Shown one piece after another: positions 30,373-53,760 of a stretch of DNA of 64,000 nt. How positions within the stretch are numbered: position 1 is the first letter of the stretch; every line of letters begins with the position of its first letter. A program made the translations under genes and the position numbers. The notes under the pieces were generated by a model, which saw only the letters and a list, made by a program, of their open reading frames with translations, had not been told where the DNA came from and did not search any database. Source of the stretch: Chlorokybus atmophyticus (Eukaryota > Plantae > Mesostigma and Chlorokybus algae); contig RHPI01002910.1 of the NCBI GenBank assembly GCA_009103225.1, forward strand, positions 376,579 to 440,578, in the 5' to 3' direction.

Positions 30373-33300
30373 ATGGAGAATGGCAGCCGCAACGGAAGTA
30401 GCAACGGGCCGTTAGTAGCAGAGGAGCCGAGTATTTCTGCTTCGTTGCAGCAGCAGCGCAGCAATGGCGAAGCAGGGAGACACGCGGACGGCCCAGCCGC
30501 TGCGTCCAAGGACTGGCACCGGACCATGCCGCACAAGGACCTCGCCGCCAACGGCCATGTTGTGTCTCCCCCCGAAGCTCGTCCCAAGGTGCGTGCATTG
30601 CGCCACGCTGCAGCGTTGCCATCGCATCATTTTGCATGCATTGAAACACAGTGCACGCTGTTTCTTTGCAGTTAGCTGCAGCTGTAGGTTGCTCCGTTAT
30701 GTGTCGCCTGGTTTCACTCCGAGTTTAGAGCTCTGACTTTGAGCAAAGCTTGCCCCTTACAATGGTGACGGCTGAGTGCATGTCTTGGTTGACGAGTGTT
30801 GTACATGTTGACAGTGTTGCAGCCAAGTCACAGTTATGGTCCATGTGCATGTGTTCACGTCGTCTGGCGTTGTGGCCATGCCCCAATGTCATGCCTACCA
30901 TCGCAACAAGTGGTGATGATGCTAGCAGCCGACAAGATGCCCATTGCTTTCTGCTTGTGTGCAAGTTGTCCAGTGCAATATCATAAAGCTGCCGTTGACG
31001 GCTGCAGGACATTGTGAATGAAGCCGAAATGATGGATAACGGCGATCACAAAGACATGTTGTACACACTTTCATCTTCATATAAGCCCCGAGATATTGCG
31101 AGCATACAAAGATCTGTTGTGAACCATGTTGAGTATACCCTTGCGCGACGGCGCTACAAGTTTGACGCCTCAAATTTTTACTTGGCCACTGCCCATTCTC
31201 TGCGCGATCGCCTCATTGAGCGCTGGACTGACACTCACCAGTATCTCACGAAGCAGGTTTGCATATTGTGCGATGACACAAGACACATTGGCTATGTAAT
31301 ATGACTTGATATGTGTATGCTTAGCTGGTTTGTGCTCATGTTGCAACAACGGCCCACCAGGATGCGAAGCGTGTATATTACCTCTCGCTGGAGTTTCTTG
31401 TGGGAAGGTCGCTGCAGAATGCTATGTACAATCTCGGATTGCAGCAAAGCTATGCAGAGGCACTCCTGCAGTTGGGATACGATCTTGAGAATCTGGTGAG
31501 CAACCTGGGTCGCATGTTGTGCAAGTGTGATGGTGTATGTGGCGCGTTTTTATGTCTCTGATTGCTTTGCGGGTGCCTGATAACAACAGGTTCAAGAAGA
31601 GAAAGACCCTGCTCTTGGCAATGGCGGACTCGGCCGGCTAGCTTCGTGCTTCCTGGACTCGATGGCAACACTCAGCTACCCATGCTGGGGGTACAGCTAT
31701 ACATGCTACAAGCATTGGTGTCATTGTTTTGGGCGACCTCCGCTGACACCTCTTTTTCATTGTGGGATCAGGTATGGCATACGGTACAAGTATGGCATGT
31801 TTGAGCAGCGCATCGTAAGCGGGAAGCAAGTAGAGTTTCCGGACTACTGGCTCACACGCGGCAACCCTTGGGAAGTTGAAAGGCTGGATGTGCAGTATCC
31901 GGTCAGGTTCTACGGCTACGTTCGCACCTTCGACGACAATGGGCGCACCCGTTTTACATGGGAGGGTGGAGAGCTCACGCTTGCCGTTGCGTATGACACC
32001 CCCATTCCTGGCTATGACACATACAACACCAATAACATGCGACTCTGGAGCAGGTAAGCCGAGCTGCATCTTCGCACGGAGCTGTTGGATTGCCTGTGAT
32101 TACTGTCTAGTTCATGCTGCTGATTGGTGCAATTCACAGCAAGCCATATTCTGAGTTCGACCTGGCCAGCTTCAATGCTGGTCACTATTATGCTGCTATC
32201 GAGGCAAAAGAGCGCAGTGAGAGCATTAGCAGTGTGCTCTATCCCAATGACAACAATGAAGGTGGCAAAGAGTTGCGGCTCAAGCAGCAGTTTTTCTTTG
32301 TGTCAGCCACCCTGCAGGTTGTCAAGACGATGTCTGCCATGATGTGCTATGTCATTATCACGAGCTGGCATTAATGGTGTGGATTGTTTTGTACAGGATA
32401 TCCTCAAGCGGTACAAGAAACGAGAGAGGCCCCTCACAGAGTTTTCTGACAAGATTGCCATTCAATTGAACGACACCCACCCTACAATCGGCATACCAGA
32501 GCTGATGCGCTTGTTGCTTGATGAAGAGGTACCGGTGGCCTGCGTGCACATATTTGTTGCATGGCAGGGACACTACTAGGGAACCTTCACATTGCGCAAC
32601 TCTTGTGGGCATGGTTGCTCACACGGTGTTGCAGGGCCTGGAATGGGATGATGCCTGGAACATTGTAACGAACACATATGCCTACACAAACCATACCATC
32701 ATGCCAGAGGCTTTGGAACGGTGGCCAGTCCCTCTTGTAGAGAACTTATTGCCGCGACACATGCAGATTATATATGAGATCAACCATCGGCACTTGCAGG
32801 TCAGGCCTTCAACTGTTGTTGGAGACACATGCCATGCTTTGGTAGTTGGCTCAGGCAGGCTGTTCATATATTCTCATCACATGTCACGTGTGCACCTCAG
32901 GAGGTTGCCAGGAGGTACCCAGGTGATGTCTCCAGACTACAAGTCATGTCTATCATTGAGGAAAGCTCTCCAAAGATGGTGCGAATGGCGGTTCTGGCGA
33001 CAGTCGCTTGCCATACTGTGAATGGTGTTGCTGAGATCCACACAGGCCTTGTTAAGTCACACCTGCTCCCAGAGTTTTACGAGATGTATCCAAACAAGTT
33101 CATCAACATTACAAATGGTGTGACATCGCGGCGATGGATGCTGTGTGCAAACCCCTCTCTCAGCAAGGTATGCGCTTGCTAGGTAAAAACCTGATCATTG
33201 TCGATGAGGTGTGGCAACGTGCCATGAACACACATGTTTGTGTCACAAGCTTTCGGCTGTATCGTTGCCTATAACGTGGGTGCATGCCTCAACCCAGTAT

Positions 33301-35447
33301 GCTAATAAGTCATTGACAGGTTATCACCAAGTGGTTGGGCAGTGATGCTTGGACTACAGATCTGGATCGCCTGCGGGTACGTTGGGGCGTTACTCTACTG
33401 CATGCAAGGGCATGGTGCAGATGCTCGTACCAATGCATTGCGTACAACAAAGTCATTGGCAGTGGTTCCACACGAGCTCACATTGCAATGGCTGTCTTGC
33501 TCTGTCATTTTCAGGGCTTGCTCACGCATGTTGACAACCTGGAGTTCCGCCAAGAATGGGCAGCTTCCAAGCACCAGAACAAGTTGAGACTAAGAGACTA
33601 CATTTTGCGGGAATGCGGCATTGAGGTACGTCAAGTGTAATGTTCGAGCAACTCTTGTGTAGCGGAGTTTGCTCTGAAGTCAGGTTGCACCTTTGTGTCT
33701 ATTTTACTGCGTTTCCAACATATTGATGGCACTGCAGGTGGATCCACACGCCCTCTTTGACATGCACATCAAGCGCATACATGAGTATAAGCGCCAGCTG
33801 CTCAATGTGCTCGCCATCATTCACAGATATCACATGATCAAGGTCTGTTTGCAGGCCATTAAGTAGAGCTGTGCAAGTCTGTACAGGCAGATTGCTAAAC
33901 ACTGCTAGCATGACACATGCAGGTGGCTACAGCAGAAGAGAAGCGCAGGCTGGTGCCACATGTGTCAATTTTCGCTGGCAAGGCTGCACCAGGCTACTAT
34001 ATGGCCAAGAAAGTCATTCACTTTGTCAACAGGTCTGAGCGATTGGGTGTTATCATGCTTATGTGGACTTCTGTGGGCTTCATTATGTGTAGCTCCAAGC
34101 ATCATGCATACATCTGTGTCAACCTGAGCAGAGTTATCTTGGCTGCAGTGTGGCTTCTGTCGTCAATGAGGACCCAGACATGGAGAACTTGTTGAAAGTG
34201 GTGTTCATACCCAACTACAACGTCTCCAACGCTGAGGTATGTGTGTGCTGTGTTGATCTATAGACAATGCCCTACATGCAGATGTAACGTGGATTGCAGT
34301 GATGTGGATGAACCATTCAGCTTGATGTTGCAGTGTTGTCTTCTACGACTTGCCGCCGTGCATGTTGCCAAGCGCATACAAACACTGATGCTCAACTTTT
34401 GTATGCATTACTGCTGTTCCCATATCTGTTGCCTTGCATTCTTAGGTCATTATTCCCGCTAGTGATATATCGCAGCATATTAGCACGGCTGGTATGGAGG
34501 CCAGCGGAACCTCCAACATGAAGTTTGTTATGAATGGCGGGTTGATTCTGGGAACAATGGATGGCGCCAACATTGAGATCATGGAGGAGATTGGTGAAAA
34601 GAACATGTTCATCTTTGGCGCCTTAGCCTCCGAGACGGACGAGTTGCGACGCAGCGCTCGCTTTCGCGAGCCCATACTGGATGAGCGCTTGCAGCAGGTA
34701 TTGTGAGCCTAAGTGTGTTGAAAACCTTCCTCTACCTTTCAGAGTATGTTTACAGGCATGTTGAAAACCTTCCACAAGGCGATGTCCCTGTTTTGACCCT
34801 AAGCTAAGACCACCATGCATGCTGGCAGGTATTCCAGATGATACACATAGGACTCTTTGGACCATATACGGAGTTCCAACCTCTTATTGAGGCACTGCTG
34901 CATGGCAACGATTACTACTTATTGTGCCATGATTTCCCTGCATACCTGGAAGCCCATGTAAGTAACTGCATGCAGTTGGTGTCCAGTCTGCCTCATGGGC
35001 CTTGTGGATCTGATCTCATTTCTGTGATTTGCACAGGAGAGGGTGGACAGGGCATTCTTACAGAAAGACGATTGGATTCGCAGTACCATTGTAAGTTGCG
35101 TAGAATGTTGTATGTGTTTGCTCGCACATTGCAGTTGCAGTCAGTGTTTGGTTTTGGCTTTCTTATTGTGGTTGCATGTCTCATCATGAAGCTTTGTGCT
35201 GGTGCAGGAAAGCACAGCAAAGATGGGACGATTCAGTAGCGACAGAACCATCCGCGAGTATGCAGAATCGATATGGCATGTGAAGGTGAAGCGCTCGCTA
35301 ATCTATGCAGTTGTATATGGACCAATGCTTGAGTGAGCGTCACATGTCTACAATTGGCACTGATAGTGAATGCCTCATGTGCAGCCATACCCATACTCCC
35401 CAGAGATGGTCACTGGTGCTGATGGCGATGACAGCGAGGCACCTTGA
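30373..35447 (+). CDS. Alpha-1,4-glucan (starch/glycogen) phosphorylase, no L78 insertion; N-terminal exons uncertain
   Basis: [87 protein letters not shown] (PLP lysine), [12 protein letters not shown]. About 18 exons, GT-AG. Confidence 0.95.
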
Positions 35448-37286: not shown

Positions 37287-38896
37287 ATGGAGCAGGTGAG
37301 CACCAGCTGTCGCCACATGGCTTGGTGTTCAGGTGTTGGTGTCAGGCAATCGCCCTGTTGCTCACATTCAAGCAACGTCATGCAATGCGAGTCATAGTTT
37401 TGCCTGAATAACCGCGGTGACGGTCAGCTGCGTTGCTGTTTCGCCAACGTACACGCCTAGCGTTGGCATGCGTAGCAGCGAATTTCATTCGAGTTTGCAT
37501 TGTCACTTGCGCATGTTCAGTAGTTGACTGTAACTGCAAGATCGTCTCAGGCGGACAGCTTTATGGTGACGCTGCAGGTTAGACTTGTAACCTGTATATG
37601 CCGAGACTGGCTGTGATACATTGCGATTTGGCGATGATGTGCTTGCTCGCATGCAGCAGTGATGATGCAACCCAACCGCATTTTGTAAACCGTGCTCGTA
37701 AAATGTCCAGTATGCATATGGGCTGAGTATCTGCAGGATATGCAGATGCAGCAGTACAATGCGTTGCCAGGAATGGCAACGCCCCAGCAGCAACAGCAGC
37801 ATCGCCAGCAAATGCAGCTGTTCTGGCAGCGCCAAGCACAGGAGATTGCAACGGTGACAGGTGGGGCAAAACCGCATGATGCCATCCTTCAAGCTGTGTT
37901 GTGCATGGTGGCATTGGCTTGCGTATGTTGAGCTATCAATTCAGTGCTGTGACCATGCTGCACTGCAGACTTCAAAAACCACCAGTTGCCTTTGGCAAGG
38001 ATAAAGAAGATTATGAAGTCGGATGAGGACGTGCGGGTAAGCAGCTTGGCACCCTCAGTGCTGTGGAGCTGCAGATGTCTAAATATAGTTGACACTGGTC
38101 ACCGCAGATGATCAGTGCAGAAGCACCTGCGCTTTTTGCAAAGGCGTGTGAATTGTTCATACTCGAACTCACATTGCAATCGTGGATTCACACGGAAGAC
38201 AACAAGCGACGGACATTGCAAAAGAACGACATTGCTGCTGCCATTACCAAGACGGATATCTTTGACTTCCTAGTAGATATCGTGCCAAGGGACGAGATCA
38301 AGGTACCTAGTGCAGGAATTGTAATGCACTGGCAGCACCACCCATTTGGGCAAGGTGTGGTGCAAGTTCTGAGGTTTAATGCTGTCGCAGGAAGAGGGTG
38401 CGACTATGGGAAGGCAGGCAACTCCCACCGGTGCACCAGCAGACCCACTATACCAGGGCATGTACTACTTGCAGCAGGGTCAACAGACAATGATGCCGGT
38501 ATGCTGCGACAGCGCGGTCTCTAGTGTCTCCTGTGTCTTTGGTTGATCTTAATGCACTGTGACGCTTGTTGACAACATTTACGAGTCCGGGGCATGCTTG
38601 GCAGGGCACGCAGCAACCCATGATGATGCAGCCTGCCATGCAAATGGATCCCATGATGTACCACCAGCAGGCGCAGGTGAGCAAGGCAGACAGCTGCATG
38701 CTTGCCTGCTGGAGTTTGCTTCACCGTCTTGTTTGTAAGCCGCTTGACATGGTGTCCTTTGCTCAAGCAGTATATGCCTCAAGCTCAGCACATGCAGTAC
38801 ATGCCACAGCAGCAGCCACCGCCAACCGTACAAGGGCAAGCATCCTCGCAGATGGAAAACTCGGGAGGTCAGCCTGGCCAGAACCAGAGTCGGTGA
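37287..38896 (+). CDS. NF-YC: Nuclear factor Y subunit C (HAP5-type histone fold)
   Basis: FWQRQAQEI...[86 protein letters not shown], with a Q/M-rich tail. The first mini-exon (ATG GAG CAG at 37287) is tentative. Confidence 0.93.
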
Positions 38897-39610
38897 TGCA
38901 CTCAGGCAACAGCAGCGCCATGTCCGTCCCCGCGGTAATATCAATGTAAGCAGCAGGACGGTCCTAGTAGAACACTGCACTTTTGCACTGACCTTGGAGT
39001 GGGTCATGACGGCACTGCTAGCCAGCGAGCAGTAGATTATTTTCTGAAGTGAAGATGTCATTCCTACCAACTACTGTACTCAAACTGTCGTCAGATATGA
39101 CTTGTTGCACACTCTGAGCTTGCATTGTTCCCAATGACGCAAATGCTGTGAGGGCCTCTGCTGTCGGGTTGTTTTGAATCAGCTGCTTGCTGGTACAGGA
39201 GGGTAGTGTCCAGTAGCATCATGACATCTGACCATTGGCATGTGTACGTCATTGCTTACAGTGCCTGGCTTCTACTCTTGCTCTTGCGCGTAGCATCCTG
39301 CACTTCAGCATGTTGATTTATATTACCAGCAGCATTGCACGACAGCAAATAAACGTACCACTACTATGGGCACAGTCACGTCCATGGCCACAACATTATA
39401 GCGAAAGTGTCCTGCTCTTCTGTATACACAGGCAGCCTGTGTGGACAGGTGATTACTTCATGCATGCTTGTACGACCAATCAGGAAGGGTAATAGTGGTA
39501 GCATAGAAGGTAGACATAGCAGTAGCTTGGTGGTGAATCATATGATGTGAATGGCGCTTGAATGTGTTTGCCGGTTGCTAGCACATTCAAGCACTATATA
39601 TAATAGGGCG

Positions 39611-39939: not shown

Positions 39940-40905
39940 CGCAGCCTGCCCGTGCTAAGAACACAGCCGTCCAACCCCACCACCCAACCCCACCAGCACC
40001 ACCTAACTGCCAGCGCTACACAGTGCAGTGCCCTAGTGCCACAGTGCAACACTGCATGCCAGCCTGCAGAACGAGAGGCTGGGCAGAGGGGCGGGGCAGA
40101 GGGGCCTTGCCAGATCAGCGGCGACAAGGGTTTGCAGTTGAGGCGACGGCACAATGACAGCAAGAGGAGGAGGGGGAGGCGGAGGAGAGAGAACAGGCGG
40201 AGCGGGGGACGAAGAAGTAGGGAAGCAGGGGAAGGACAGACAGAGAGGGAGAGAGGGAGGGAGACTGTGGGAGAGGGGGAGAGAGGGAGGGAGAGGGAGT
40301 GTGCTGCATGCTGCCTGCTGCTGTTACGCTGCACCTGGACTACCGTGGTTGACGCTGCTGCTCGTGTGTTGCACAGGTAATCAACCAACAATACGCATGT
40401 ATGCATGCCTAACGGGGAGGTCTAGAGTAGGGTAGTGTGGTAGGTAAACAGGCAGTCATTATAGCCCGGTGGTGGTGTATGTGACTGTGTTTGCATGCTG
40501 GTTGGTATGCTATGCTGTTGTGACGTCATGCATGTCGCCAATTGTCTCGCGCATATCCTGTACACCATGCATGCTCGAATAATTGCCACTTGCATTGCAG
40601 CACACCACTTCTTGTACAGCCATCTATGAAATCATAGTCAATACTGTATGTCCACATGTACATGGCATCATGATTGTATGGTACTACCAATGCACGCTAG
40701 TTAATTACAAATGAAAGTGTATTGGGCAAGTGAGGCCACATGCTTCACCAAGCTTAGCAACCACTATGGATGGACTTGATCAGTGCATGCTGCCCTTGCC
40801 AAAAGTGCAAGAGCGTATGCGCGCTGTCGGAACACACGCAATTTGTTACACAACCAATCATTTGAACAATTGTTGCCGCAAGTTTAGTATCAAGATGACA
40901 CGCCC

Positions 40906-40972
40906 ATAGCATGTATAAGTACCACCTGCCGAGCGCCTCCTGCGCTCGGCAGGTGGTACCTATACATGCTAT
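40906..40972. repeat. 31-bp inverted repeat (1 mismatch) with 5-nt loop
   Basis: ATAGCATGTATAAGTACCACCTGCCGAGCGC-CTCCT-GCGCTCGGCAGGTGGTACCTATACATGCTAT. Confidence 0.9.
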
Positions 40973-41829
40973 CCTCACGCCCCTTGCGCGCTACCATACC
41001 CCGTTGCTGCTTAAGAGTCTATCTAGGTCCAAAGTTGTAGTCTAATAAGACTGCTATGATGGGACGCTAATTACATTTTAGAGTTGAACTCTGCCTTGGC
41101 TCTCGTTGAGATTGTGTGCTTGTGTCACACCAGTGGTCTAGAAGGGGCCAACTTTCTCGTTGCTGCTTACAGCCAGGCACCACTCCCGCGCTACCAGCAT
41201 CAGCAGACACTACACTGGGCTATGCCTACAGCCAGGCATCGACCCCGGCTATCAGCATGGGTCCCGCGCGACACTGAGCAGGTGTGAGACAGTTCTCGTA
41301 GGTACCTAGGACAAGTCATAGCTGTGCTATGATCCGTTGTGAGTTCACTTTGGCCCTATCTAGGTCATTTCATAAACTAGTCATTGTTCTAGAGCTGCGC
41401 AGCTATCATTGAAATATAAAGGCATAAGATTTTCTTCACACGTTAATGGTACTTTAAGTGAGAACTGGGAATTTAGTATTGAGACATACGTAAGCTGATC
41501 TTCGGAGTGCTCTGAACCGAGTCTTAAAGCTTGTGGCTTGATGTGACTGCAGCACCTCACCGCCCCGGTTACCAAGACACATCTACACGTGAGAGAGCAG
41601 CGTATTCATACGATCATTGTTAATCACTTAATGTGACTGTGGCTGCGTGGGCGCATGTTGTGCAGTCCGCATTTGATTGTGTGATATCCACGTGTTGCCG
41701 CATTCATACACCTCACTTAACAGTGGAACTAATTTTGACCTCATGCAAGGAATTATAAAAGCAGCACTACCTCTAGTAGTGGCTTGTTAACTTACAGTAC
41801 CATCCTTCTTGTACAAGCGAGTGTCGTGC

Positions 41830-42071
41830 ATCTGTCGTGCCTGCCATGGTCGAGGGTCACGCCGTCTCGAACACACTACAGACAATCGCTCATGTCGTGG
41901 GCATGCTGGGCATGGTGCTGCGAGCAGCATTTAAGCAGCACAAACAAAGACAACCCCCCAGACATAGGCATAAGCTCGGGGATGAACCGATGTGAGGATC
42001 TGATGAGTAGTAGAGCTGGTGACGCTCTCCCCCTTACTGTACCTATTGTGCGGTAGTACACACAGTAAACA
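41830..42071 (-). repeat. Diverged second copy of the Gypsy 3' LTR-like sequence
   Basis: Aligns with 42715-42937 (for example GTAGTAGAGCTGGTGACGCTCTCCCCCTTACTGT and CAACCCCCCAGACATAGGCAT). Same orientation. A further inverted fragment of the same family lies at ~41215-41275. Confidence 0.75.
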
Positions 42072-43019
42072 AGCCACAACGATATGTAGTGCTGTATACA
42101 CAGTTCTTTGCATGAGTGGTTGATGTATTACACTGTTAAGTGAGGTGAATGAAACAAGCAACTCAGAGAGAGTGCTATGTCTTGACTAGTGCAGCAAACA
42201 CACCACCGCCAAGCTCACAGCAATGACAAGCACAGCGCACAAGAGCATACACCGTATCTCACGTGGTAAGGCTGTCCTTGGCAATCAGGACGGTGTGCTT
42301 CCAGTTCAAGTCGTTTCACAAGCTCTTAAAGTCAGAGTCTCTACTCTTAGTACTCGCTCATAGTGTCACCAGCGAGTTTAGTGACATGACTTCCTACTTA
42401 TACATGTAAAATCATGGCTGTGCAGTGCTACGCGAGTACTAGGCCAACGGTCACATCGAGGCCCTATGCTATTACGGAAATATCCTAAGACTTGATATAG
42501 CACATGAGCTGATAATAGATTCCTAACTGATCAGCTACGCGCGGTTCCTACAGAGAGGTCTATGAAGTAGCCCTAGCTACATGCTACATGGAGTACGAAG
42601 TAGCTAGCAGTAGAATGGGGCGCGCGCGGTCTTCATGCTGATAGCTCGGGCTTGTGGCTGGATGTAGGCATGCTCGAGGAGGACTGGCATGCGAGGGTAG
42701 TTGGCATGACAGCTGTCGTGCCTGCTATCGTTGAGGGTCACCCCGTCTCAAACACACTACAAACGAGCGCTCATGCCGGTGGCATGCTGGTGCTGCGCGC
42801 AGCATTAGAGCAATACAATCAGAAACAACCCCCCAGACATAGGCATAGGCTTGGGGATGAACCTATGTGAGGATCTGATTAGTAGTAGAGCTGGTGACGC
42901 TCTCCCCCTTACTGTGCGGTAGTACACACAGTCAACAAGCCACCCCCCATTGAAGTTCTGGGGTAGCCTTCTGCTCCAGAACTCAGCTTTTACCAACTGT
43001 GTTGGGGATCGTCGATGCG

Positions 43020-43157
43020 GCAGTCATCGCACCAATATTCCCACAGCGGCACCTTGTCAAATGGAGGGTCAATGCAGTAACAGTGCATGCCTTGGTTGCA
43101 GCCTTCGCATAACAGCATCACCGGGTTGTTGTCGGCACTGCCACATCTCTCGCAGCA
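43020..43157 (-). pseudogene. PHD finger at the C-terminus of the Gypsy integrase
   Basis: CERCGSADNNPVMLLCEGCNQGMHCYCIDPPFDKVPLWEYWCDDC is a canonical C4HC3 pattern. One frameshift separates it from the upstream VNCAPCHLP segment. Confidence 0.88.
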
Positions 43158-43825
43158 ATCGCGGGTGCTGGATCTTGCAAAAGCCAGCGACGTGGGGAAG
43201 ATGACAGGGCGCGCAGTTCACCATGTTGTCCTTCATGCGTTTGCCTTGTTGTCCCAGCAGGTCCAGTACCCCTGTGGGATACACCTTCAATACCTTATGG
43301 ACAACGCACCCGACGGAGGTGTCGAGGGTGTCGTATGTGGCTGCCATGTGGTAGACGAAGTCTTCTGGCCATGGTCACAAGGTACGCGACTTTTAGACCA
43401 ATAGTACGCGTTTGGACGCGTACAGAGACCCCGCGTACCTAATACGCAGTCTGTACGCAGTCTGTACGCCAGTGTAACTGGGTTACGCTCCAGTTACGCT
43501 GAGATACAGCTTAGCACTGTATCTCAACCGTAACTGGTCAGTCTAGTGTAACTAGGCGGCGGTGCAGGCAACATAGTTGGCGGCAGCGGCGGCGTTAGCG
43601 GCGGCAGGCAGGTGGGAACGGCGCTCCTTTAGCTGCAAGCTTCATCTCTCAAGCTACTGTAGCTGCGCCTGATAGCCATTAGCTACAAGGTGTGTGCGTG
43701 GGTATGCACTGGTTGCCTGCATGCTTGGCTATGCGCCCATCATACATCATGCAGCCTGCAAGTCATACCATCAACGTGCTATATGTGATTTGCATGTGTT
43801 CATAATAGTGTTTGTTTATGTTAGA

Positions 43826-46344
43826 ATGACGCAAAGTGCGCTGTGGAAGCACGTCGACATAATAGAGAGAAAGCCTCATGGCAACTTTCGTGTGAGGTGT
43901 GTTTATTGCGAGCACGAGTGGACAGGAAGTGTTTCACGTATTGGTGCCCATCTGAGTGGTGAACGTGGAGTCACCAAGTGCACAACCCCTCCCGAGGAGA
44001 TCGTCTTGCAACTTACACAAGCCAAGAAAGACAAGGAGAAAGAGGGTGAGAAGAGGAGGAGGTTGGACTTGCTAGATCAACTCACATCCGCCATTGGGGA
44101 TGCTGGTGCAGGTACTTGAATGCATGCGTGCATGCATTGAAGCTTGGCAAGCAGTGGTGCTGCTCATCACGCATCAAATCAATCACATTGTGCTATAGAT
44201 TCAAGCGCCACCGTTCCTTCTAGTCAACAACAAACTCTTGATGCAACTTTCAAGCGTGGGGATAAAGCGCATGTGGATGAAGCCATTGCTCGGTTTTTCT
44301 TCAGCAATGGCATCCCCTTCAACGTGGCAAGGTCCCCTTACTTTATCGCAGCAATGAAAGCGGTTGGCAAGTTTGGCGCTTCATATACCCCTCCCTCATC
44401 CGAGGCGCTTCGCACAACCTTGTTGGAAAAGGAGTATGCTAGGGTGAATGGCGAACTTGCAGTCATCAAGGACTCAACACGAGAAACCTCATGCACAATT
44501 GCTAGCGATGGATGGTCGGACACGTCCAACCGTCCATTGTTGAATGTGCTCATGGTGAGTCCTAAAGGAGAAGTTTTTCTTCAAGCAATCAACACGGAAG
44601 GGAAGGAGAAGACGGCGGAGTATGTATCCGAGCAGCTGATCTCCACCATTGATGAAGTAAGTGGTGCACTCGTTCATTGCCATTATAGATTGTGTACACA
44701 ACCATGCTAAGTAACACATGCAAGCACTGACTGGCAGCACTTTATGAGCACATGCATCACACGCGCATGCTCATGCTCGCACCCGACACAAGTACGCATG
44801 CGTGTGACACATGCATGCACTGACTGGCAGCACTTTGTGAGCACATGCATTACACGCGCATGCTCATGCTCGCACACAACACAAGTACTTATGCGTGTGA
44901 CACATGCACGCACTGACTGGCAGCACTTTGTGAGCACATGCATCACACACGCATGCTCATACACGCACACAACACAAGTACTTATGTGTGTAACTTGCAG
45001 GTGGGGTCCGCGAATGTGATACAAGTTGTCATGGACAATGCAAGCGTGTGCGTAGCTGCTGCACGTCTGATCACTAGCGAATACCCGCACATCACATGGA
45101 CGCCGTGCACCGCGCATTGCTTGGACTTATTGCTTGAGGATATAGGCAAGTTGGAGTGGGTTAAAAGCGTGGTGGCTGATGGCAAACGCATAGTGAAGTT
45201 CATTACCAACCACCATCGTTCCTTGGCCATCTTCCGCTCCAAAGCCAAGCTAGAGCTGCTCAAGCCAGGTGAAATAGCATGCGTGCATGTGTGTAGTTAG
45301 AGATCAACTTAGTACAAGCGCAAGATTAATGGTAGACAGCAACCATGTGAAATTGCAGCTGATTGCCCGCGCATGCATGCATGCTCATGTCATGCGCGTG
45401 CTTGTTTGCTCATAGCTACTTGTTGTGCAGGAGATACTCGCTTCGCAACGTCATTCATAACTCTTGCAAGGCTAGTCGAGGTCAAAGACGCTCTCGACGA
45501 GGTGGTGGTGAGCAGGGACTGGAAGGCTTGGGCCGACAAGGGTGTGCATAAGCAAGAAGCTGCTGCAGTCAGAGCGTTGATCTTGGCACCAGATTTCTGG
45601 TCACAAGTGGCATTAGTGAATGCGGTGTCGGCCCCCATCGTGGATCTGCTGCGTTTGGTTGATGGGAACTTGCCCACCATAGGCAAAGTGTACGCCAAGA
45701 TGTTTCGTGTTGGCGACCAGCTCAAGCATCTGAAGGGCATGACTGAACAACAACGACTTGATGTGCGCGCCTGTTGGAGGGACAGGTGGATCATGCTGCA
45801 TAGTGACATGCATGCAGCAGGCTATGTGCTGGATCCCGAATATTGGGGTCATGAGCAGCACACCAATGAGGAAGTTATGGAAGGCTTTGCAACGATGGTG
45901 GAGAGGGTCCTGCAGTCCCATGACAAGGTTGACTTGGCGTTGCAACAGCTACACATGTACCGAAGTAAGATGGGGCTGTTCGGCAAAGAGGCAGTGCAAC
46001 GAGCGGCTCTCACAATGCCCGCGCATGCTTGGTGGCACATGTATGGTGGTAGTGTACCCGAGTTGCAGCAGCTAGCGATGCGCGTGTTGGCTCAACCATC
46101 ATCAGCTTGTAGCTGTGAGAGATCCTGGAGCACGTACGACTTCATCCACTCAAAGAGAAGGAATCGGCTGCAAGCACGCAGGGCAGAGAAGTTGGTGTTT
46201 GTCTTCACCAACTTGAGGCAGCTGAAGAAGATCCACAACCCACATTATGTGCAGGAGTTTGTTGAGTGGGAGGCAGACTCTGATGTGGACGTGTTGTCTA
46301 GTAATGATGATGAGGGGGGCGAGTCTGATGATTACTCGGTGTAA
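43826..46344 (+). CDS. hAT transposase (BED finger, DUF659-type DDE core, hATC dimerisation domain), 4 exons, 641 aa, apparently intact
   Basis: Exons 43826-44111, 44199-44656, 45001-45268 and 45431-46344 total 1926 nt with no internal stop. Motifs: CVYC..H..C, SDGW, MDNA, CTAHCLDL, TRFA, WW..YG, SCERSWS. Confidence 0.92.
44716..44994. repeat. Three tandem 93-bp units in hAT intron 2
   Basis: ACATGCA(A/T/C)GCACTGACTGGCAGCACTTT... recurs at 44716, 44809 and 44902. Confidence 0.93.
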
Positions 46345-49300
46345 CTAGGCAGACACATGTGATGGGCTATGTCTGCACACATGCTTCGCTGTAACATAGT
46401 GTTCTCTGCTCATTGTTTACTGTTGTGCACATGTACGCAAGTAGCATGCTTGATGCTCGTGAAGCAACACGACAAAACTGCCACTGTAGCGTACTGCCAC
46501 GTACTGGCATAAATGGGTACATGTATGTACGCGTACACCACCGCTCACGTACTAAACGCGTACTGTGTACCATGTGACCATGCTTCTGGCTAGAAGCGGC
46601 GTTCTCGCTCCTTGTCGAACCGCTGCGCTCGTAGCGAAGCGTGTCGCGGTGCTGAACAATGCGCGTGTTGTTTAATGCCATGGGGACAATGTGTTCGAAC
46701 AGCGCGCTGCGCACTGTTAGATCATACAGCATCGTCGGGGTTGTTAAGATTGTCCACCACTCTGTCGACCTCCTGCTGTGCGCAGAATGGGAGCAATGGC
46801 TGCCTTCCAAACAGAAAATAGTACGGGCTGTACTCCCGCAGTGCTGCCTGCTCGGATAGCCGGTACCCAAGTGCTACCCATGGAAGGTGGTCATCCCATG
46901 TGGTTTTCTCGTAGTCGAGGACGCACTTGCGCAAAGCCTTCTTGATGGTCTGCATAGTTCGCTCAGCGAGACCATTGGCTTGTGGATGGTCGCGTGAAGT
47001 GCGGCGATAATCGATAAAGCATCTATCCATGAGTTTGTCGAGGGCTACTCTAAACTCCGTACCTTGGTCGGTGATGACTTCAGCACAGCTGCCGAAGCGT
47101 CCGAGTACGTGGAGAGGAAAGCCGAGGCTACTCCCTCGCTGCTCTTGTCGGGTAGGGGCACCAGCTCCACCCACTTGAAGAAGTGCTCGATCATGACGAG
47201 GGTGTAGTGGTTGCCTTGTGCTGAGGGCGATAAGTGCCCGAGGATGCCCAGTCCCAGCGGTAGAACAGTTCCGAAGGGGAGGGGATGCAAGGTGGCGTTG
47301 CGCGTGTTCAGGCTCGCGCGGACCATGTCGCACTGCTGGCAGTTGCTGACAAACTCGCGCACCTGTTTGTGCACCTCATACCACCAGATTCGAGTCCTGA
47401 CAAGGCTGGCCGTACGCTTAACACTGAAGTGTGCGAGCTCTGTGTGAAGGGCAGCAATAATGCCTTCTCGCGCAGTTGGTGTTGGGACCTCCTTGTCCTC
47501 ATTCTGTATCCGTCGATGCAGCTTGTGGTCGGCCCAGCGATAGCGCTGAGAGCGTTAACCAACGCGGTCCTTCTCGTGCGCGCTCGTGCCCGCTTAAAAT
47601 TGACCAGGCCGGAGCAGTGCGAGGGATAACTTGTCCAGCCACATGTCATGTCGCGTGTCGGTGGGTGCCAACTTCTCATCGTCCACCTCATGGCCGGCGG
47701 CGAGCGCTTCTTCTGATAAGGGATCGGTAATAATGACAGTGACGATGGGCCCGAGAGAAGGCACGTCCTCGTTTGCTGTTGCCTCAATGGTTTGGGTCTT
47801 GCGTCTTAAACGTAGCGCAGCGACAGCGAACATGGTCGCTACACGTGAAGGTGCGGCTGCAGGACCCAACTCGTGTCGGGCTCCTGTCGCATCGTTGGTG
47901 CTGCGGTGGGGGTTGCGATTAAGGCCGTCTGCGTTGTGGTTGGACAGGCCTGCCCAATGCTCCACCTCAAAGTTATACTCCTGCAGTAGTAGCACCCACC
48001 GTGCTAGCTTGCCTATCAAATGCTGGTTGGTCATCAGCCACATCAGTGGTTGGTGGTCGGTGATCAGTTAGACCTGCCGTCCAAACAGAAAGGGGCGGAA
48101 GAACGAGATGGCCCATACTGCGGCGAAACACTCCCCCTTGCAGCTGCTGTAGTTGGCCTCAGCACTGTTGTTGCTGCAGCTGGCATACGATACTACGCGC
48201 TCCGTTTTGTTGTCATTATGCTGCACAAGCACAGCGCCCATGCCGAGCTTGCTTCAATTTATGTGCAGCTAGAATGAATTGTTGTAGTAAGGTCGCTAAA
48301 GAGTGGGAGCTGTGGTGAGTCAGAGCGTCAATTCCTTAAAGGCCTCTTGTTGTGCCTCCTTCCACAGGAACTTCGTGTCCTTCCTTAGCAGCTCGTTGAG
48401 TGGCCGCGATCTTCGCAAAGTCCTTGAAGAAGCGTCTGCAGTAGTTGGTAAAGCCGAGGAAAGCACGCAGTCGCGTGAGATCCGTGGGGGCAGGTATGGC
48501 CACCAGTGCCTCCACCTTAACCTGATGTACATACACACCGTGGGGCACAATCGTGTGCCCTAGGTACGGTACCTTGTGGGTAAAGAAGGCGCACTTGTCG
48601 GGGTGCACCGTCATCCCTACTTCCTTCAGTCTGTGTAGCACCTCCCCGATGTGCCTGAGATGCTCCTCATTGCTGCGACTGAAGATGAGGATGTCGTCGA
48701 TGTAGCAACGTGCAAAGTCCAATCCCTTGAGGGCTTTGTCCATGACGCGCTGAAACTTGGCAGGAGCATTCTTTAGTCCGAAGGGCATGACCTTCCACTG
48801 GTACAGCTGCCGGTTGTCTCAAAAAGAGGTCTTGTGCTTATCCTCCTCCTTGATGGCAATCTGGTTGTACCCTTAGCGCATGTCCAGGATATGAAGATTG
48901 TACAGTCTCCTACATCATTAAAGATACCTTCTGCAGTAGGCATCGGATACCTGTCTTGCTTAATCTTGGTGTTGAGGGGGCGGTAGTCACCGCACATACG
49001 CCGGTATGTCCAATTGCCTGCTGAATCCTTCTTCAAGGCATGACGATTGCGGCCGCAAAGTCCAATGTGAACTCTTCAATTAGGCCTGCAGCTAACAGAG
49101 CCTTGCACCTCTGCTCCACCAAGTCTTCTTCCAACTTGGAGACTCGGTACTGTTGTCGGAACACCGGTTCGGCGTTCATCAACTCGATGTCCATCTGGTA
49201 AACTGAGCAGATGCTCAGTTCCTTCACGCTAAAGCCGGACTGACTCCTCCGCTTGTTGAGGAGAGCCCCGAGTTGTTCCCGCGTCTGGCCTGTAGCCATT

Positions 49301-49499
49301 GGTCCAATGGCATGGGACCAAGAGGTAGCATTGGCGACTACTGAAATGTCCTCCACAATGACTGCTGCCTGCTCCTTTATGCGGGTGGTTTCGAAGGCGG
49401 TGTGTGCCGCATCGGTCTCTCGAACGCGATCAACCCACCCCCCCGCCCAGTGTTCGAGCTCCTGAAAGGACACGTAACGGTCCTGGAGAGCAAAGCATT

Positions 49500-50469
49500 T
49501 CTCCAACAACCACACTATGCTGTTCTGGTCCATTGCGCGTCCCAACAACTGACATTGCTGACTGTCGGTCAGCATAGAACCTGTGATACTACCTGAAGAG
49601 AATCCCATGGCGCGTTCGCGCTCACGGGCGCTGGGTTCCTCCAGTCGGCCTGTCTTGGAATCCAACACCATGCCTTCGCCTTGGTTGCGGAAGGCGTATA
49701 ATCTTGGGTAAGACACGAGAGTGGGGAGCGCACGACGTGGTTGACCAGGCTGGTTGCATTTGTAGAAGTGCTGGTGACCGTGTCACGTGACCGGTTGTGC
49801 TGCGCGCCCAGGGTCTAGGATAGCGTTGACGGTGAGGTCGCGCGGACAACTGCAGTGCAGATTTTCAGCAGCAAAGAGATCTTCGACTGTAGCCAGGTTG
49901 GTCCACTTGGCGCGGACGCGATAAGCACGACATCCATGACGCGCTGCATTGATTATAAGAGGATGCCCCATCAAGGAATACACCTGTCAAATGATGCTGG
50001 CCATGTGATGACGTTTATCGTCCGCAGAGTGCACGATTGTTATGATGTACCCCAGAGGCCCGGACAGCTGATTGCTCTGCAGGAGTTTAGTGACGTGCAT
50101 CAGTTCCCAAAACAGTCGCGAGCAACCAGAGAGTCCTTGGCCTCTGCCTGCTCTGGAGTGTCCTTGACACTCCCATCTTGCTATCAGCAGGTCGATGTTG
50201 CCCACTGCCAGGAGGTTATCCGCAGTGATTAATTGGATATCCTGTGGCAGTGCCTTCAGACTGCCTTGCAGTGCCGATAGTGGCAGCTGCTGCGGGTAGC
50301 ATTTGTGTACGTGGCGAAAGTGGTGGCTAAGGGCAATCTGTGCGTTTGGACTAAGGTCACAGTAAAAGTACTTGGTGACCGTCGCGCCGGTGTTGAGGAT
50401 AGCGGTGAGGCCACTACCTATACCTCCAAACAGTTCCAACACGGTGATGCCTTGTTGTCGGCAAAACAC
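49500..50469 (-). pseudogene. C5-cytosine DNA methyltransferase domain inside Gypsy pol
   Basis: Motif I VLELFGGIGSG; motif IV DLLIARWECQGHSRAG (Cys kept); degenerate VI YIITIV; VIII AARHGCRAYRVRAKWTN; IX ERERAMGF; X QLLGRAMD. All in one frame with two TGA stops. Confidence 0.87.
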
Positions 50470-51249
50470 ATGAAACTCGCGACGAGGCCACTTGAGTAGT
50501 CTCCACTACACAAGTGGCCACCTGATGTTGCTCCTAGATTGCAGCTTGGTTCTTGTAGAGAGGGAACCATGCAGTCAGCCGTGGTCTGGTCAGCAGTAGA
50601 TGTGTGACCACTTGTGCGCGGCAGCGCTGTTCAGATGGTTTCTGTTGGGCCACTTCTTTAGTGGTTCATTCTTCTGGGACTCCTCGTATGGGATAGGAGA
50701 GTTTTGGTCAGAGTTGTGGGTGACTACCGTTGCTGACCTGTCAGTGGTTGTCGAAACCGACCTGTAAGTGGCTGTTGCAGCTGACCTTTGGTGAGAGCAA
50801 GTGTGAGCCACCAGCTCGAGAGGCAGGTATCCTTGAACCTCTCCATCCTCCTCATCCCGATGGGGACGAAGTCATGCCTATTCTGTCCAGCAGTCCAGCC
50901 CCATGCCAACAGGAGAGGTAGAATCCTGTCCCAGCAACAGGTCGAGGGATCCGTATCGGTGACAGCACACTTCTGTATGACCTCAGTGATGTGGGAAGGG
51001 TCCAACCCTGTCAAGCGAATGCAGAGGGCCTGCTTGATGATGCCCATCATCTTGTCATGGCTGCCGGTTGCTGTGTCGAGCACGTATTATTATTCGGAAG
51101 CTAGTGCACACATGCAATGTCCGTGTGGCTATATACTCTACCAGACTGCACACTTCTACTCTATAAGGTCCTTTTCCATCTACACGCGTCTATATCGGAC
51201 GCTTTAAGTTGCACCGCGTAGCTAACTTCAAGAGCTTTTTCAACAAGCT

Positions 51250-53760
51250 ATGCCACGTCTCTAGCAACTAAGTAGTCAGAAAGTTCTACTACTTCTACCG
51301 GAGCTCTGGACTGTTCCTCAGACTGTTCAAGAGCTCCAAGTCCGGAGTCTTCGAGCGTCCGTCATTGGACTATGCAGATATCGAGCCTCAGACTCACAAC
51401 TGCTCAATATCAGTCTTCTTACTGCAACTGCAACGTGCTCAAGGACTTAAGCATTTTTAGCACTCGATGCCTTTGTCTGTCGAGGTTGAGCTGACTGGAC
51501 GTCACTCCGTAATACTGCCCCGCAGGCAGCTTGACCCAAGCTCCTACTTAAACACAAATGCCAAGACTAGCACAGCATGCCTTGTACTTCACTGGTGATA
51601 GTGCCTTTGTCATGAAATCCGCGAGCATGTCTTTAGTCTTGCAATACGAGAAGGCAACCTCCTTTCTCATGACTCTGTCTTGCACAAAATGATGCATGAC
51701 ATCAATGTGCTTTGTGCGTGAAGAAGCGATTGGGTGCTTCAGCATGACATCAATGTGCTTTGACGGCGCCTTGATTGTCGCAGTTGATTGTGATGCAATC
51801 CATGGGATGCTCCATATCCGCCATTAGCTTACGAAACCATAATGCTTCCTTTACCGATGCCGCTGCTGCCATGTACCCCGCTTCAGATGTGGATGCCGCT
51901 GTAGTTGGCTGCAGCCTGCTGTTCCAGCTCACAACTCTTCCGTTGAGTATGAACACATAGCCAGTAGTAGACTTTCTGCTGTCCAGGTCTCCAGCAAAGT
52001 TCTAGTCGCAATAGCCTTACAGCTCAGTGTCGCCGCGACCATACTTGATGCCAACAATAGCGTTTCCCGCCACATAGCGTAGTACCCCCTTTGCAGCCCT
52101 CCAGTGCTTAATCGACGGTGCAGACATGTAGCGAGCAAGGACTCCAACAGCATGTGCAATGTCTGGACGCGTGCACACTGCCAAATAGAGCATGCTGCCT
52201 ACCAGCTCACCGAAAGGGTATTGAGCCTTGTTAAGTACCTCTCCCTCCTTCACCTTTACGAGGTTGGTACCGACCGCCAGTGGTGTAGACTTGGTCTTTG
52301 CCTCAGTTAATCCAAATTTGGCAACCAGTCTCTTTACCATCTGCGCCTAGCTGATCTTGATAATGCGCGCCATTCTGTTGCGCTCAACCACCATTCCAAG
52401 AAAGAACTTGTGTTGAAGATATTCCTACATCTAGGCGGATGGTCAGCTTGCCCTCTGAATAGGAATGGCCGCGAGAAGGTCCTAGGCGAGGACTCGAGTC
52501 GAAAGTTCCTGGCGCGTGAAGGTTCTAGGCGCGGACTCGAGTCCGGAGTCTGGCGACTTCCAGGCCTGCACGAGAATCGTCATAACTCGGTGGTTGCTGC
52601 ACCGATTTGGGCGTTCTAGTGCTCAGTAGATAGCCCTTAGAAATAGCTGCAAGATGCTTCTTGTAACGCAGCATTTCAATAAGAGTAGCGAACGTGGTGG
52701 TTTCTAGAGTAGACAGGTGTATTCCTAACGGGTATAAAACCCGCGGACATGATGGCAATAGATGGTCTTAGTCTTGTTGTTGCAGCCTCTTGGCGTTGGT
52801 GTTGGGTGGCGTGCACACATGTGCATGTGTAGGTTTGTCAACGCATCTCATTAACTTGGCCTCTCCAAGATCACGCACTGAGAATGCTTGCTTCTTTGCC
52901 TTGTAAAAGAAGAGCTCAGGGTCAGCGGTTGATGCCTTGAAGCCCAACAACTCCAACTCTTTTGTAAGCCGAATGTGCCACATACAAGGTGCTTGCCGTA
53001 GCCCATATAATGCCTTGATCAGCTTGCAGGCCATACCGCGCTCTCCTTCTTCATAGCCAGGTGGTTGCTCAATGTAGATCTCTTCCTCCAACTTTTCATA
53101 AAGGAAGGCAGTCTTCACATCGAGGTGATGCATCTCTAGGTCCTCCGCAGCAACCATAGCCAACAATGCACGAAAGGTGACATGCTTACTTGCGGGAGCA
53201 AAAACCTCTGTAAAGTCAACGCCCTCTGTTGCAGGAAGCCCTTTGCCACCAGCCTTGCCTTGTACCGCTCAATTTTGCCTCGACCATCACGCTTCACCTT
53301 GAAGACCCACTTGACAGGAATGGGCTTAGCACCTTCAGGCACCTTTTGAAGCACCCAAGTATTGTTGGCGTGAAGTGACGCAATCTCCTCGTCCATAGCC
53401 CGCTGCCACTGCTCCGCGTCAAGTGCGCGCAGCGCCTCCACATAGGTGCTTGGCTCCTTCATATCCTTTCGCACATTCGCCATGTGTGCCTTATAAAAGT
53501 TAGGTGCGCTTCTCTCCCTCTCTGGATACCTGCGAGTTGACTGGTGCTGATGTTGCTCCACATTGCTAGCCTCAGTCAAGTCGTGCTCATCCAGAATGAC
53601 TGCCGCGCCTTTTGTTGACATACACACGTGCAAGTGACACGCCAACAACAGCAACACAAGAGCATGACTGCTACTGCCATTAATGCCATACAAGTCCAGG
53701 GGTTTATACCCCGCCAGTTTCTACACACGTCTACATTTGCAAGCACCGCGTGCACAATAC
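51250..53760 (-). mobile_element. Decayed Ty1/Copia remnant (RT-RNase H, PPT, 3' LTR-like)
   Basis: WQRAMDEEIASL..NNTW..KWVFKVK...YKARLVAKGF; LDVKTAFL; LYGLRQAP; GSMLYLAVCTRPDIAHAV; STSEAGY; CDNQGA; RTKHIDV; LADFMTKAL* (stop 51548). Purine-rich tract then LTR-like sequence below ~51513. Confidence 0.9.
52411..52853 (+). mobile_element. 443-bp solo-LTR-like insertion in the Copia RT
   Basis: Starts TGTTG and ends ...CATTA. Flanked by direct repeat ACTTG (52406-52410 and 52854-52858). Excision restores DLGEAKFFLGM. Confidence 0.8.

What the first reader, a model, noticed from the sequence alone, without database searches (positions are those of the whole stretch)
46600..51100. Ty3/Gypsy retrotransposon carrying its own cytosine DNA methyltransferase in frame with reverse transcriptase
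Seen in sequence: between protease and RT lies a C5-MTase with motifs I, IV (WECQ, catalytic Cys kept), VIII, IX and X. The uninterrupted ORF 49033-49716 contains both MTase motifs IX/X and the RT N-terminus (PVFRQQYRVSKLEEDLVEQRCKALLAAGLIEE), so the fusion is direct. The two in-frame stops are TGA, plausibly CGA deamination. Established: DNMT-bearing retrotransposons have been reported in the charophyte Klebsormidium and in dinoflagellates, so the concept is known but rare and poorly characterised. Inference: the element methylates its own cDNA to mimic host CpG methylation or to regulate itself. The order PR-DNMT-RT-RH-INT-PHD suggests an epigenetically self-managing element. This copy is dead (motif VI ENV is degenerate).
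Basis: partly seen in the sequence, partly recalled or inferred. Interest (0 to 1): 0.85.

Follow-up and report, generated by a model that had tools for sequence, protein, structure and literature searches.

The report
Dead algal retrotransposon carrying DNMT3 methyltransferase
A decayed jumping gene in a green alga (likely Chlorokybus) carries a DNMT3-type DNA-methylating domain inside its replication polyprotein, a design already described in Klebsormidium that likely lets live copies methylate their own new DNA, and its relatives occur in both halves of the green-plant tree.

Summary
Real, and of a known kind. The minus strand holds a dead, 5'-truncated Ty3/Gypsy pol: protease half, C5-methyltransferase, RT, RNase H, integrase. 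The PHD finger lies 3.2 kb further on, beyond a hAT insertion. The methyltransferase is DNMT3-like by profile and fold, and runs in frame into RT. A host gene matches JGI Chlat1 (Chlorokybus) at 100%. A Klebsormidium nitens Gag-protease-DNMT protein is 32% identical, so this is a new member of KnitGypsy-Dnmt3 (de Mendoza 2018). The scan had already noted this kind in mosses. The family is far larger than published: 534 clusters at E<=1e-10, with catalytic Cys and Glu in 157 of 157 domains. Named streptophyte members place the DNMT before RT; named chlorophyte members place it after RNase H. Both form one RT lineage against 10-16 outgroups, which suggests one capture and a later move within Pol. 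Self-methylation of cDNA remains inferred: no CpG depletion, no CpG-biased decay, and the Klebsormidium enzyme was inactive in yeast.

The parts
50791..51092 (-). C-terminal two thirds of the aspartic protease and its downstream segment, in two frames; catalytic motif missing (5' truncation near 51092)
   Evidence: family protease profile positions 44-90 (E 7e-4) and 92-142 (E 8e-10) of 146; tblastn
49480..50460 (-). DNMT3-type C5 cytosine methyltransferase domain (327 codons), broken by two TGA stops and a degenerate motif VI
50167..50169 (-). catalytic Cys codon of motif IV (WECQ)
   Evidence: sequence; Cys in 157 of 157 homologues
50035..50040 (-). motif VI position, reads Thr-Ile
   Evidence: Glu in 157 of 157 and Asn in 150 of 157 homologues
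49033..49782 (-). stop-free ORF joining DNMT motifs IX/X, a linker and the RT N-terminus
   Evidence: one tblastn HSP of P0081 residues 886-1386 over 50460-49036
48405..49140 (-). reverse transcriptase (YIDD), in three frames
   Evidence: Pfam RVT_1 E 4e-26
47960..48403 (-). RNase H, with several stops
   Evidence: Pfam RT_RNaseH E 3e-6
46591..47500 (-). integrase zinc finger and core, frameshifted
   Evidence: Pfam Integrase_H2C2 E 4e-13, rve_3 E 0.04
43370..46582 (+). hAT DNA transposon inserted into the integrase C-terminal region (BED finger, DUF659, hAT dimerisation domain; terminal inverted repeats; 8-bp target duplication at 43362-43369 and 46583-46590); not part of the retroelement
   Evidence: in run X1 a contig of depth 74 joins 43367 to 46626
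43189..43362 (-). continuation of the integrase C-terminal region beyond the hAT
   Evidence: P0005 1366-1423, P0081 2178-2237 and P0075 2691-2748 align here
43020..43154 (-). PHD finger ending Pol (stop 42992-42990)
   Evidence: Pfam PHD E 1e-7; PDB hits UHRF2/1, BAZ2A/B, ATXR5, KDM5
42710..42943 (-). first copy of a 3' direct repeat (B1), preceded on the minus strand by a G6 run
   Evidence: 84% identical to 41829-42077 over 249 columns
42078..42709 (-). multi-copy spacer between the two repeats (candidate 'A2' of a B-A-B end)
   Evidence: summed contig depth 157 against about 29 on the hAT; no second full copy in the window
41829..42077 (-). second copy of the 3' direct repeat (B2); probable 3' end of the element
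   Evidence: depth falls to 7-8 left of 41734

Best explanation
This is a dead, 5'-truncated copy of a multi-copy Ty3/Gypsy retrotransposon whose Pol carries a DNMT3-type cytosine methyltransferase between protease and reverse transcriptase, and in live members that enzyme likely methylates the element's own new cDNA before it integrates. Shown: the domain order, the in-frame fusion, the DNMT3 fold, invariant catalytic residues across the family, kinship with the Klebsormidium element, and that this copy is broken. Inferred: Pol is packaged with its RNA, so the DNMT meets the cDNA first and acts in cis. The context is probably CpG, by analogy with DNMT3A and SymbioDIRS-Dnmt3. In K. nitens CG marks active gene bodies while CHG/CHH marks silent elements, so a CG-marked copy would look like host gene DNA. 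The integrase PHD likely reads an unmethylated H3 tail and steers integration.
For: Family profile ranks DNMT3A/B/C first (E 2e-21 to 5e-17), then M.HhaI (2e-8), DRM (4e-8 to 5e-6) and DNMT2 (3e-3). Model pLDDT 85; best fold match DNMT3B, TM 0.71. K. nitens GAQ93235 is zf-CCHC-PR-DNMT and 32% identical over 330 columns, E 7e-41. P0081 and P0075 are single PR-DNMT-RT-RH-INT-PHD ORFs collinear with the window. Cys and motif VI Glu are kept in 157 of 157 domains; motif VIII Arg residues in 154 and 155 of 157. RT and DNMT trees agree broadly (Mantel rho 0.62, 67 rows; 14 of 18 starred DNMT splits in the RT tree). The DNMT stays on the replication polyprotein in both positions. In L070 it ends the Gag ORF at TAG-CAA-TCA in frame with RT, a leaky-stop motif (recalled) that would give Gag-level amounts in the particle. 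SymbioDIRS-Dnmt3 domains methylate CG de novo in yeast (PMC5890265). PHD is present in 57 of 60 long-enough proteins; Trp two residues before the His in only 1 of 59.
Against: No activity is shown for any Gypsy-DNMT3; the K. nitens domain gave no methylation in yeast, though DNMT3B also failed there. No CpG depletion: element 0.78 against window 0.72; DNMT part 0.79, integrase part 0.99. Of 67 printed differences from sister copies, 35 look like C-to-T decay: 9 CG, 7 CHG, 19 CHH, against a background of 20/22/58%. That is all-context decay with no CpG signature; the sample is small and was chosen by the tool. 6 of 26 starred RT splits conflict with a starred DNMT split. Homologues were found by similarity to the query, which favours conserved ones. 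Expression was not tested.
Confidence: 0.6

Rival explanations
1. The DNMT is active but works in the nucleus at or after integration. Carried with the integrase-PHD, it methylates the insertion site or the integrated copy, seeding silencing that limits harm to the host.
For: In the largest group the DNMT sits directly before INT-PHD (58 proteins RH-DNMT-INT, 20 more DNMT-INT). The PHD resembles readers of unmethylated H3 (ligand classes recalled), as does the ADD domain of animal DNMT3 (recalled). The authors raise host benefit by slowed transposition.
Against: In this element and its group the DNMT lies before RT, far from INT, and in L070 it is on the Gag ORF. Nothing links it physically to integrase after processing.
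Confidence: 0.22
2. The domain is kept for binding or shielding nucleic acid, or methylates the RNA genome, and does not methylate cDNA.
For: No activity of the K. nitens domain in yeast. No CpG depletion. About 17 extra residues between motifs II and III relative to DNMT3B show divergence.
Against: Catalytic Cys and Glu in 157 of 157 is hard to explain without catalysis. The closest fold is a DNA enzyme; DNMT2 ranks last.
Confidence: 0.13
3. A one-off chimera: a host or foreign DNMT fragment landed in this copy, or the assembly joined unrelated pieces.
For: The region is a nest of elements (hAT inside, Copia-type next door). No listed contig of X1 spans the whole element.
Against: Same order in intact relatives. 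Stop-free DNMT-RT junction. Sister copies cover the DNMT. Klebsormidium has the same PR-DNMT order.
Confidence: 0.02

Closest known systems
KnitGypsy-Dnmt3 of Klebsormidium nitens (de Mendoza et al. 2018, PMC5890265; read parts 1-4 of 7 and passages of the peer-review file; Fig. 4c and the main supplement not seen)
   Same: Gypsy Pol with an intronless, non-rearranged DNMT3-type domain in the RT ORF. K. nitens GAQ93235 has the same PR-then-DNMT order and 32% identity. The B-spacer-B 3' end fits half of the DIRS-like repeat layout described for it.
   Different: Different host class. This copy is dead and 5'-truncated. A PHD finger is not mentioned in the paper's main text (0 occurrences). The paper places the capture 'in the K. 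nitens lineage', whereas relatives span streptophytes and chlorophytes. That GAQ93235 is one of the paper's copies is my inference.
SymbioDIRS-Dnmt3 of Symbiodinium (same paper)
   Same: DNMT3-type domain in Pol, found in two positions; shown to methylate CG de novo in yeast; no CpG depletion.
   Different: DIRS element with tyrosine recombinase, no DDE integrase or PHD; reported as an independent capture. Not compared by sequence here.
EpiLTRs and DAM-LTRs (bioRxiv 10.64898/2026.05.21.726589; read parts 1-2 of 5 and passages; supplements closed)
   Same: LTR retrotransposons joining a methyltransferase with a histone reader.
   Different: They carry DAM plus a DNMT4-sister enzyme plus a chromodomain, and the preprint sets them apart from streptophyte Gypsy-DNMT3. 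The window has a DNMT3 type, a PHD and no adenine-methyltransferase-like tail.
Mammalian DNMT3A/3B catalytic domain
   Same: Best profile and fold match (E 2e-21; TM 0.71).
   Different: About 20% identity, an insert between motifs II and III, no PWWP or ADD, embedded in a polyprotein.

Membership tests
Ty3/Gypsy retrotransposon | Pol order PR-RT-RH-INT with DDE integrase after RNase H | tested here: met
Ty3/Gypsy retrotransposon | gag, paired terminal repeats, PBS, target-site duplication | tested here: inconclusive
   5' part missing; 0 of 37 gag queries hit; only 3' repeats seen; no genome held
Gypsy-DNMT3 (KnitGypsy-Dnmt3 kind) | DNMT in the same ORF as RT | tested here: met
   ORF 49033-49782; HSP 50460-49036 with two stops and no frameshift
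Gypsy-DNMT3 (KnitGypsy-Dnmt3 kind) | DNMT3-related, not rearranged (motif order I to X), intronless | tested here: met
Gypsy-DNMT3 (KnitGypsy-Dnmt3 kind) | homology to the Klebsormidium retrotransposon DNMT | tested here: met
   GAQ93235 32% over 330 columns, E 7e-41; inside the 114-row retroelement group, at its base
Gypsy-DNMT3 (KnitGypsy-Dnmt3 kind) | DIRS-like repeat layout A-coding-B-A-B | tested here: inconclusive
   B-spacer-B present at the 3' end; the 5' A cannot be checked; a tandem LTR fits too
Gypsy-DNMT3 (KnitGypsy-Dnmt3 kind) | tree position against host DNMT3, DRM and SymbioDIRS DNMTs | not tested
   no host DNMT3 sequence was among the fetched proteins; outgroups were 6 phage and bacterial enzymes
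Gypsy-DNMT3 (KnitGypsy-Dnmt3 kind) | purifying selection on the DNMT (Ka/Ks) | not tested
   no set of copies as DNA; residue invariance is indirect support
active C5 DNA methyltransferase (this copy) | open frame, motif IV Cys and motif VI Glu | tested here: not met
   Cys kept, Glu lost, two stops
active C5 DNA methyltransferase (family) | methyl transfer to DNA | not testable with these tools
   needs an assay; the K. nitens domain was negative in yeast
EpiLTR | DAM plus DNMT4-sister DNMT plus chromodomain | tested here: not met
   PHD, DNMT3 type, no tail domain in 40500-43400

The most novel reading that the evidence does not exclude
Gypsy-DNMT3 is not a Klebsormidium oddity but one ancient, PHD-bearing Ty3/Gypsy lineage of the whole green-plant clade with hundreds of families. 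It captured a DNMT3 once, kept it catalytically intact, and moved it within Pol (before RT in streptophytes, after RNase H in chlorophytes). In one branch the DNMT was tied to Gag by a leaky stop, and in another a second, amino-methyltransferase-like tail was added. The Chlorokybus copy places the lineage at the base of streptophytes.
Probability: 0.55. Interest if true: 0.7.

Novelty: new member of a known kind. Interest (0 to 1): 0.45.

Why it matters
The copy itself is a dead member of a kind published in 2018. Its value is as an entry to a much larger family. Why a transposon would carry the enzyme class that hosts use to silence it has been open since that paper, partly because the one Gypsy enzyme tested was inactive. 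Intact, named relatives in culturable algae (Scenedesmus, Chlamydomonas eustigma, Closterium), two DNMT positions and a PHD reader make the cis-methylation idea testable. A single origin across chlorophytes and streptophytes would revise the published lineage-specific capture.

Tried and rejected
No genome is held, so full-length copies, the 5' repeat and copy number were not examined. No RNA holder was listed. IMG/VR gave no retroelement relative: 0 of 14 candidates, and 5 of 201 were weak, partial C5-methyltransferase matches on viral contigs, E 6e-9 or worse. The RT search in metagenome contigs gave 64 loci, of which only L001 showed a DNMT. X2 and X3 gave only short, low-identity pieces. 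The reading of 'VLDTATGS' at 51086 as the protease active site was rejected: it aligns to mid-protease. A CpG-specific decay signature was looked for and not found. The window's 3' non-coding part does not match L001 or L070-L072, whose repeats did not settle the terminal layout. The three 'bacterial' hits L070-L072 are read as algal or plant retroelement contigs binned into MAGs (inference from content). Pfam does not name the tail domain: best MethyltransfD12 E 0.035 in 1 of 13 proteins, of which 8 have the tail. Careful trees timed out; finished. Searches are quick LG+G4 trees. Paper searches 35 (0 hits), 36 and 80 and passages of PMC11982613 gave nothing on this family.
Full report
Observation. 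On the minus strand, frame 50505-49036 translates to a C5-methyltransferase followed by the start of an RT, with two TGA stops. The last 249 codons are stop-free and join motifs IX/X to the RT N-terminus. Pfam finds RT, RNase H, the integrase zinc finger and a PHD. It finds the methylase only weakly (E 0.0025, below cut-off), and not at all at E<=0.001 on the read-through. Intact homologues align in order from 51027 to 46610 and resume at 43362. Between lies a hAT transposon, 43370-46582, with terminal inverted repeats and an 8-bp duplication. In run X1 a contig of depth 74 skips it, so other copies lack it. The protease is cut off at about 51092 without its catalytic third, and no gag is in the window (0 of 37 queries). 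The copy is dead: P0081 alone meets 13 stops and several frame changes, and motif VI has lost its Glu.

Host and copies. A tubulin-cofactor C gene in the window is 100% identical to jgi/Chlat1/8204; Chlat1 is Chlorokybus atmophyticus (name recalled). In X1, summed contig depth is about 29 on the hAT and 51-300 over the retroelement, with 663 contigs laid on 41000-52000. This is no copy number but shows a multi-copy family; 111 contigs lie on the DNMT part. High depth continues to about 41830. There, two 84%-identical repeats (42943-42710, 42077-41829) flank a 630-bp spacer. That fits the 3' half of the DIRS-like layout given for the Klebsormidium element (legend of Fig. 4c; peer-review file), but the 5' end is missing and a tandem LTR fits as well.

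What the domain is. A 16-sequence family profile ranks DNMT3A/B/C first among 54 PDB sequences (E 2e-21 to 5e-17), ahead of M.HhaI, DRM and DNMT2. The model (pLDDT 85) matches DNMT3B with TM 0.71. K. nitens GAQ93235 is a zf-CCHC-protease-DNMT protein, 32% identical over 330 columns.

The family. The domain finds 1025, 534 and 160 clusters at 50% identity with E up to 1e-3, 1e-10 and 1e-30; I saw the best 150. Of 288 fetched proteins (near-duplicates included), 281 had a domain hit. In 24 the DNMT is followed by RT. In 41 it follows the protease and the protein ends. In 83 it follows RNase H, and in 20 more it opens the protein before integrase. 102 are DNMT-only fragments, 8 lack it and 3 are irregular. 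Named members of the first two groups are streptophytes: Closterium, Mesostigma, Klebsormidium. Named members with the DNMT after RT/RNase H are chlorophytes: Scenedesmus, Chlamydomonas eustigma, and a partial Haematococcus hit. Most members are unnamed, so this split rests on few names. Among 157 domains covering over 70% of the profile, catalytic Cys and motif VI Glu are invariant. The motif II-III spacing is 38-41 residues in 150 of 155 domains of both types, about 17 more than DNMT3B. A PHD follows integrase in 57 of 60 long-enough proteins.

Trees. In RT-RNase H trees, DNMT bearers fall on one side against DNMT-less Gypsy loci: 72 against 16 rows, SH-aLRT 96, quick; 28 against 10 rows, 100/99, careful, after thinning and dropping one long row. 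The after-RNase H type is one group (100/99). The before-RT type is not (one group in 9% of bootstraps), because two of its members lean to the other type (91/85). The DNMT tree joins the same two to that type (99). RT and DNMT distances correlate (rho 0.62, 67 rows); 14 of 18 starred DNMT splits and 15 of 26 starred RT splits recur, and 6 conflict. The simplest reading is one capture and one move within Pol. Limits: few and unclassified outgroups, midpoint roots, no host DNMT3 in the tree, and ascertainment through the DNMT. Two captures into sister lineages, or horizontal spread, are not excluded.

How it likely works. Shown: fusion, fold and conservation. Inferred: the DNMT is packaged with Pol and methylates the new cDNA in cis, probably at CG. 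PMC5890265 proposes this, shows CG activity for SymbioDIRS-Dnmt3, and reports CG on active gene bodies and CHG/CHH on silent elements in K. nitens. In L070 the Gag-protease-DNMT frame ends at TAG-CAA-TCA, in frame with RT. This fits the TAG-CAR-YYA leaky stop (recalled) and would put the DNMT in the particle at Gag levels; it is one locus. The PHD's best solved relatives are UHRF2/1, BAZ2A/B, ATXR5 and KDM5 fingers, which I recall as readers of unmethylated H3, and only 1 of 59 has the cage Trp. Against: the K. nitens domain was inactive in yeast (inconclusive). CpG o/e is 0.78 against 0.72 for the window. Of 67 printed differences, the 35 deamination-type ones are 9 CG, 7 CHG, 19 CHH, close to background. 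This looks like host all-context methylation of a silent copy. It does not refute cis methylation, since active SymbioDIRS-Dnmt3 also lacks CpG depletion.

Comparison and novelty. It works like, and by the testable features is, a Gypsy-DNMT3 element. I read parts 1-4 of 7 of PMC5890265 and passages of its peer-review file; its figure and main supplement, which may show domain order and a PHD, could not be seen. PMC12344493 (passages; 1 supplement searched, no hits) and the 2026 preprint (parts 1-2 of 5 and passages; supplements closed) cite the kind for streptophytes only; their trees may hold more members. Eight searches found no report of it in Chlorokybus, Mesostigma, Closterium or chlorophytes, nor of the after-RNase H position; most subscription papers are not in the library. 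Earlier scan notes report the kind in mosses; I did not check their DNA.

Verdict. Observation confirmed; interpretation partly supported; new member of a known kind; interest 0.45. The family-wide reading (probability 0.55) would deserve 0.7.

Noticed in passing
L070:3489-3497: Gag-protease-DNMT ORF ends in TAG-CAA-TCA in frame with the RT-RH-INT-PHD ORF, a match to the TAG-CAR-YYA read-through motif (recalled). 24 related PR-DNMT proteins form one clade with it and most end 74-134 residues after the DNMT.
   Followed up: partly
L072:3061-9519; P0025, P0033 and others: Many relatives with the DNMT after RNase H end in a further domain that looks like a degenerate amino-methyltransferase (DPW/F-x-G-x-G, NDIN, SPW/F motifs by eye; 38 tails aligned). 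Pfam gives only MethyltransfD12 at E 0.035. If real, a DNMT3 + PHD + second-methyltransferase design distinct from the published EpiLTRs. Absent from the window.
   Followed up: partly
L070, L071, L072: Eukaryote-type retrotransposon contigs filed in GTDB genomes of Synechococcales, Cyanobium and Minisyncoccia; probably binning contamination.
   Followed up: partly
window:43370-46582: hAT transposon that looks young and complete: terminal inverted repeats, perfect target duplication, transposase in apparent exons, and a 93-bp three-copy tandem repeat at 44711-44994 in an apparent intron; flat depth of about 29 in X1.
   Followed up: partly
window:51100-54900: Decayed Copia-type element (RVT_2 at E 1e-28 and 1e-11) abutting the truncated protease, with an LTR-like piece at about 52400-52760 inside its RT.
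   Followed up: no
window:55846-60718: Three long minus-strand ORFs (471, 525, 326 aa) with DUF6589 and a CXC domain; possibly a KDZ/Zisupton-like transposon or viral remnant (recalled).
   Followed up: no
window:41222-41792: Short inverted, diverged pieces of the element's 3' spacer (41703-41792, 41222-41270) and a 31-bp-arm hairpin at 40906-40972.
   Followed up: no
P0325, P0224, P0315, P0310: Some relatives add a G-patch or a Tudor-like domain to Pol.
   Followed up: no
window:20152-21291, 31584-35239, 38000-38900: Host genes: tubulin cofactor C, and by eye a starch phosphorylase and an NF-YC-like gene.
   Followed up: partly
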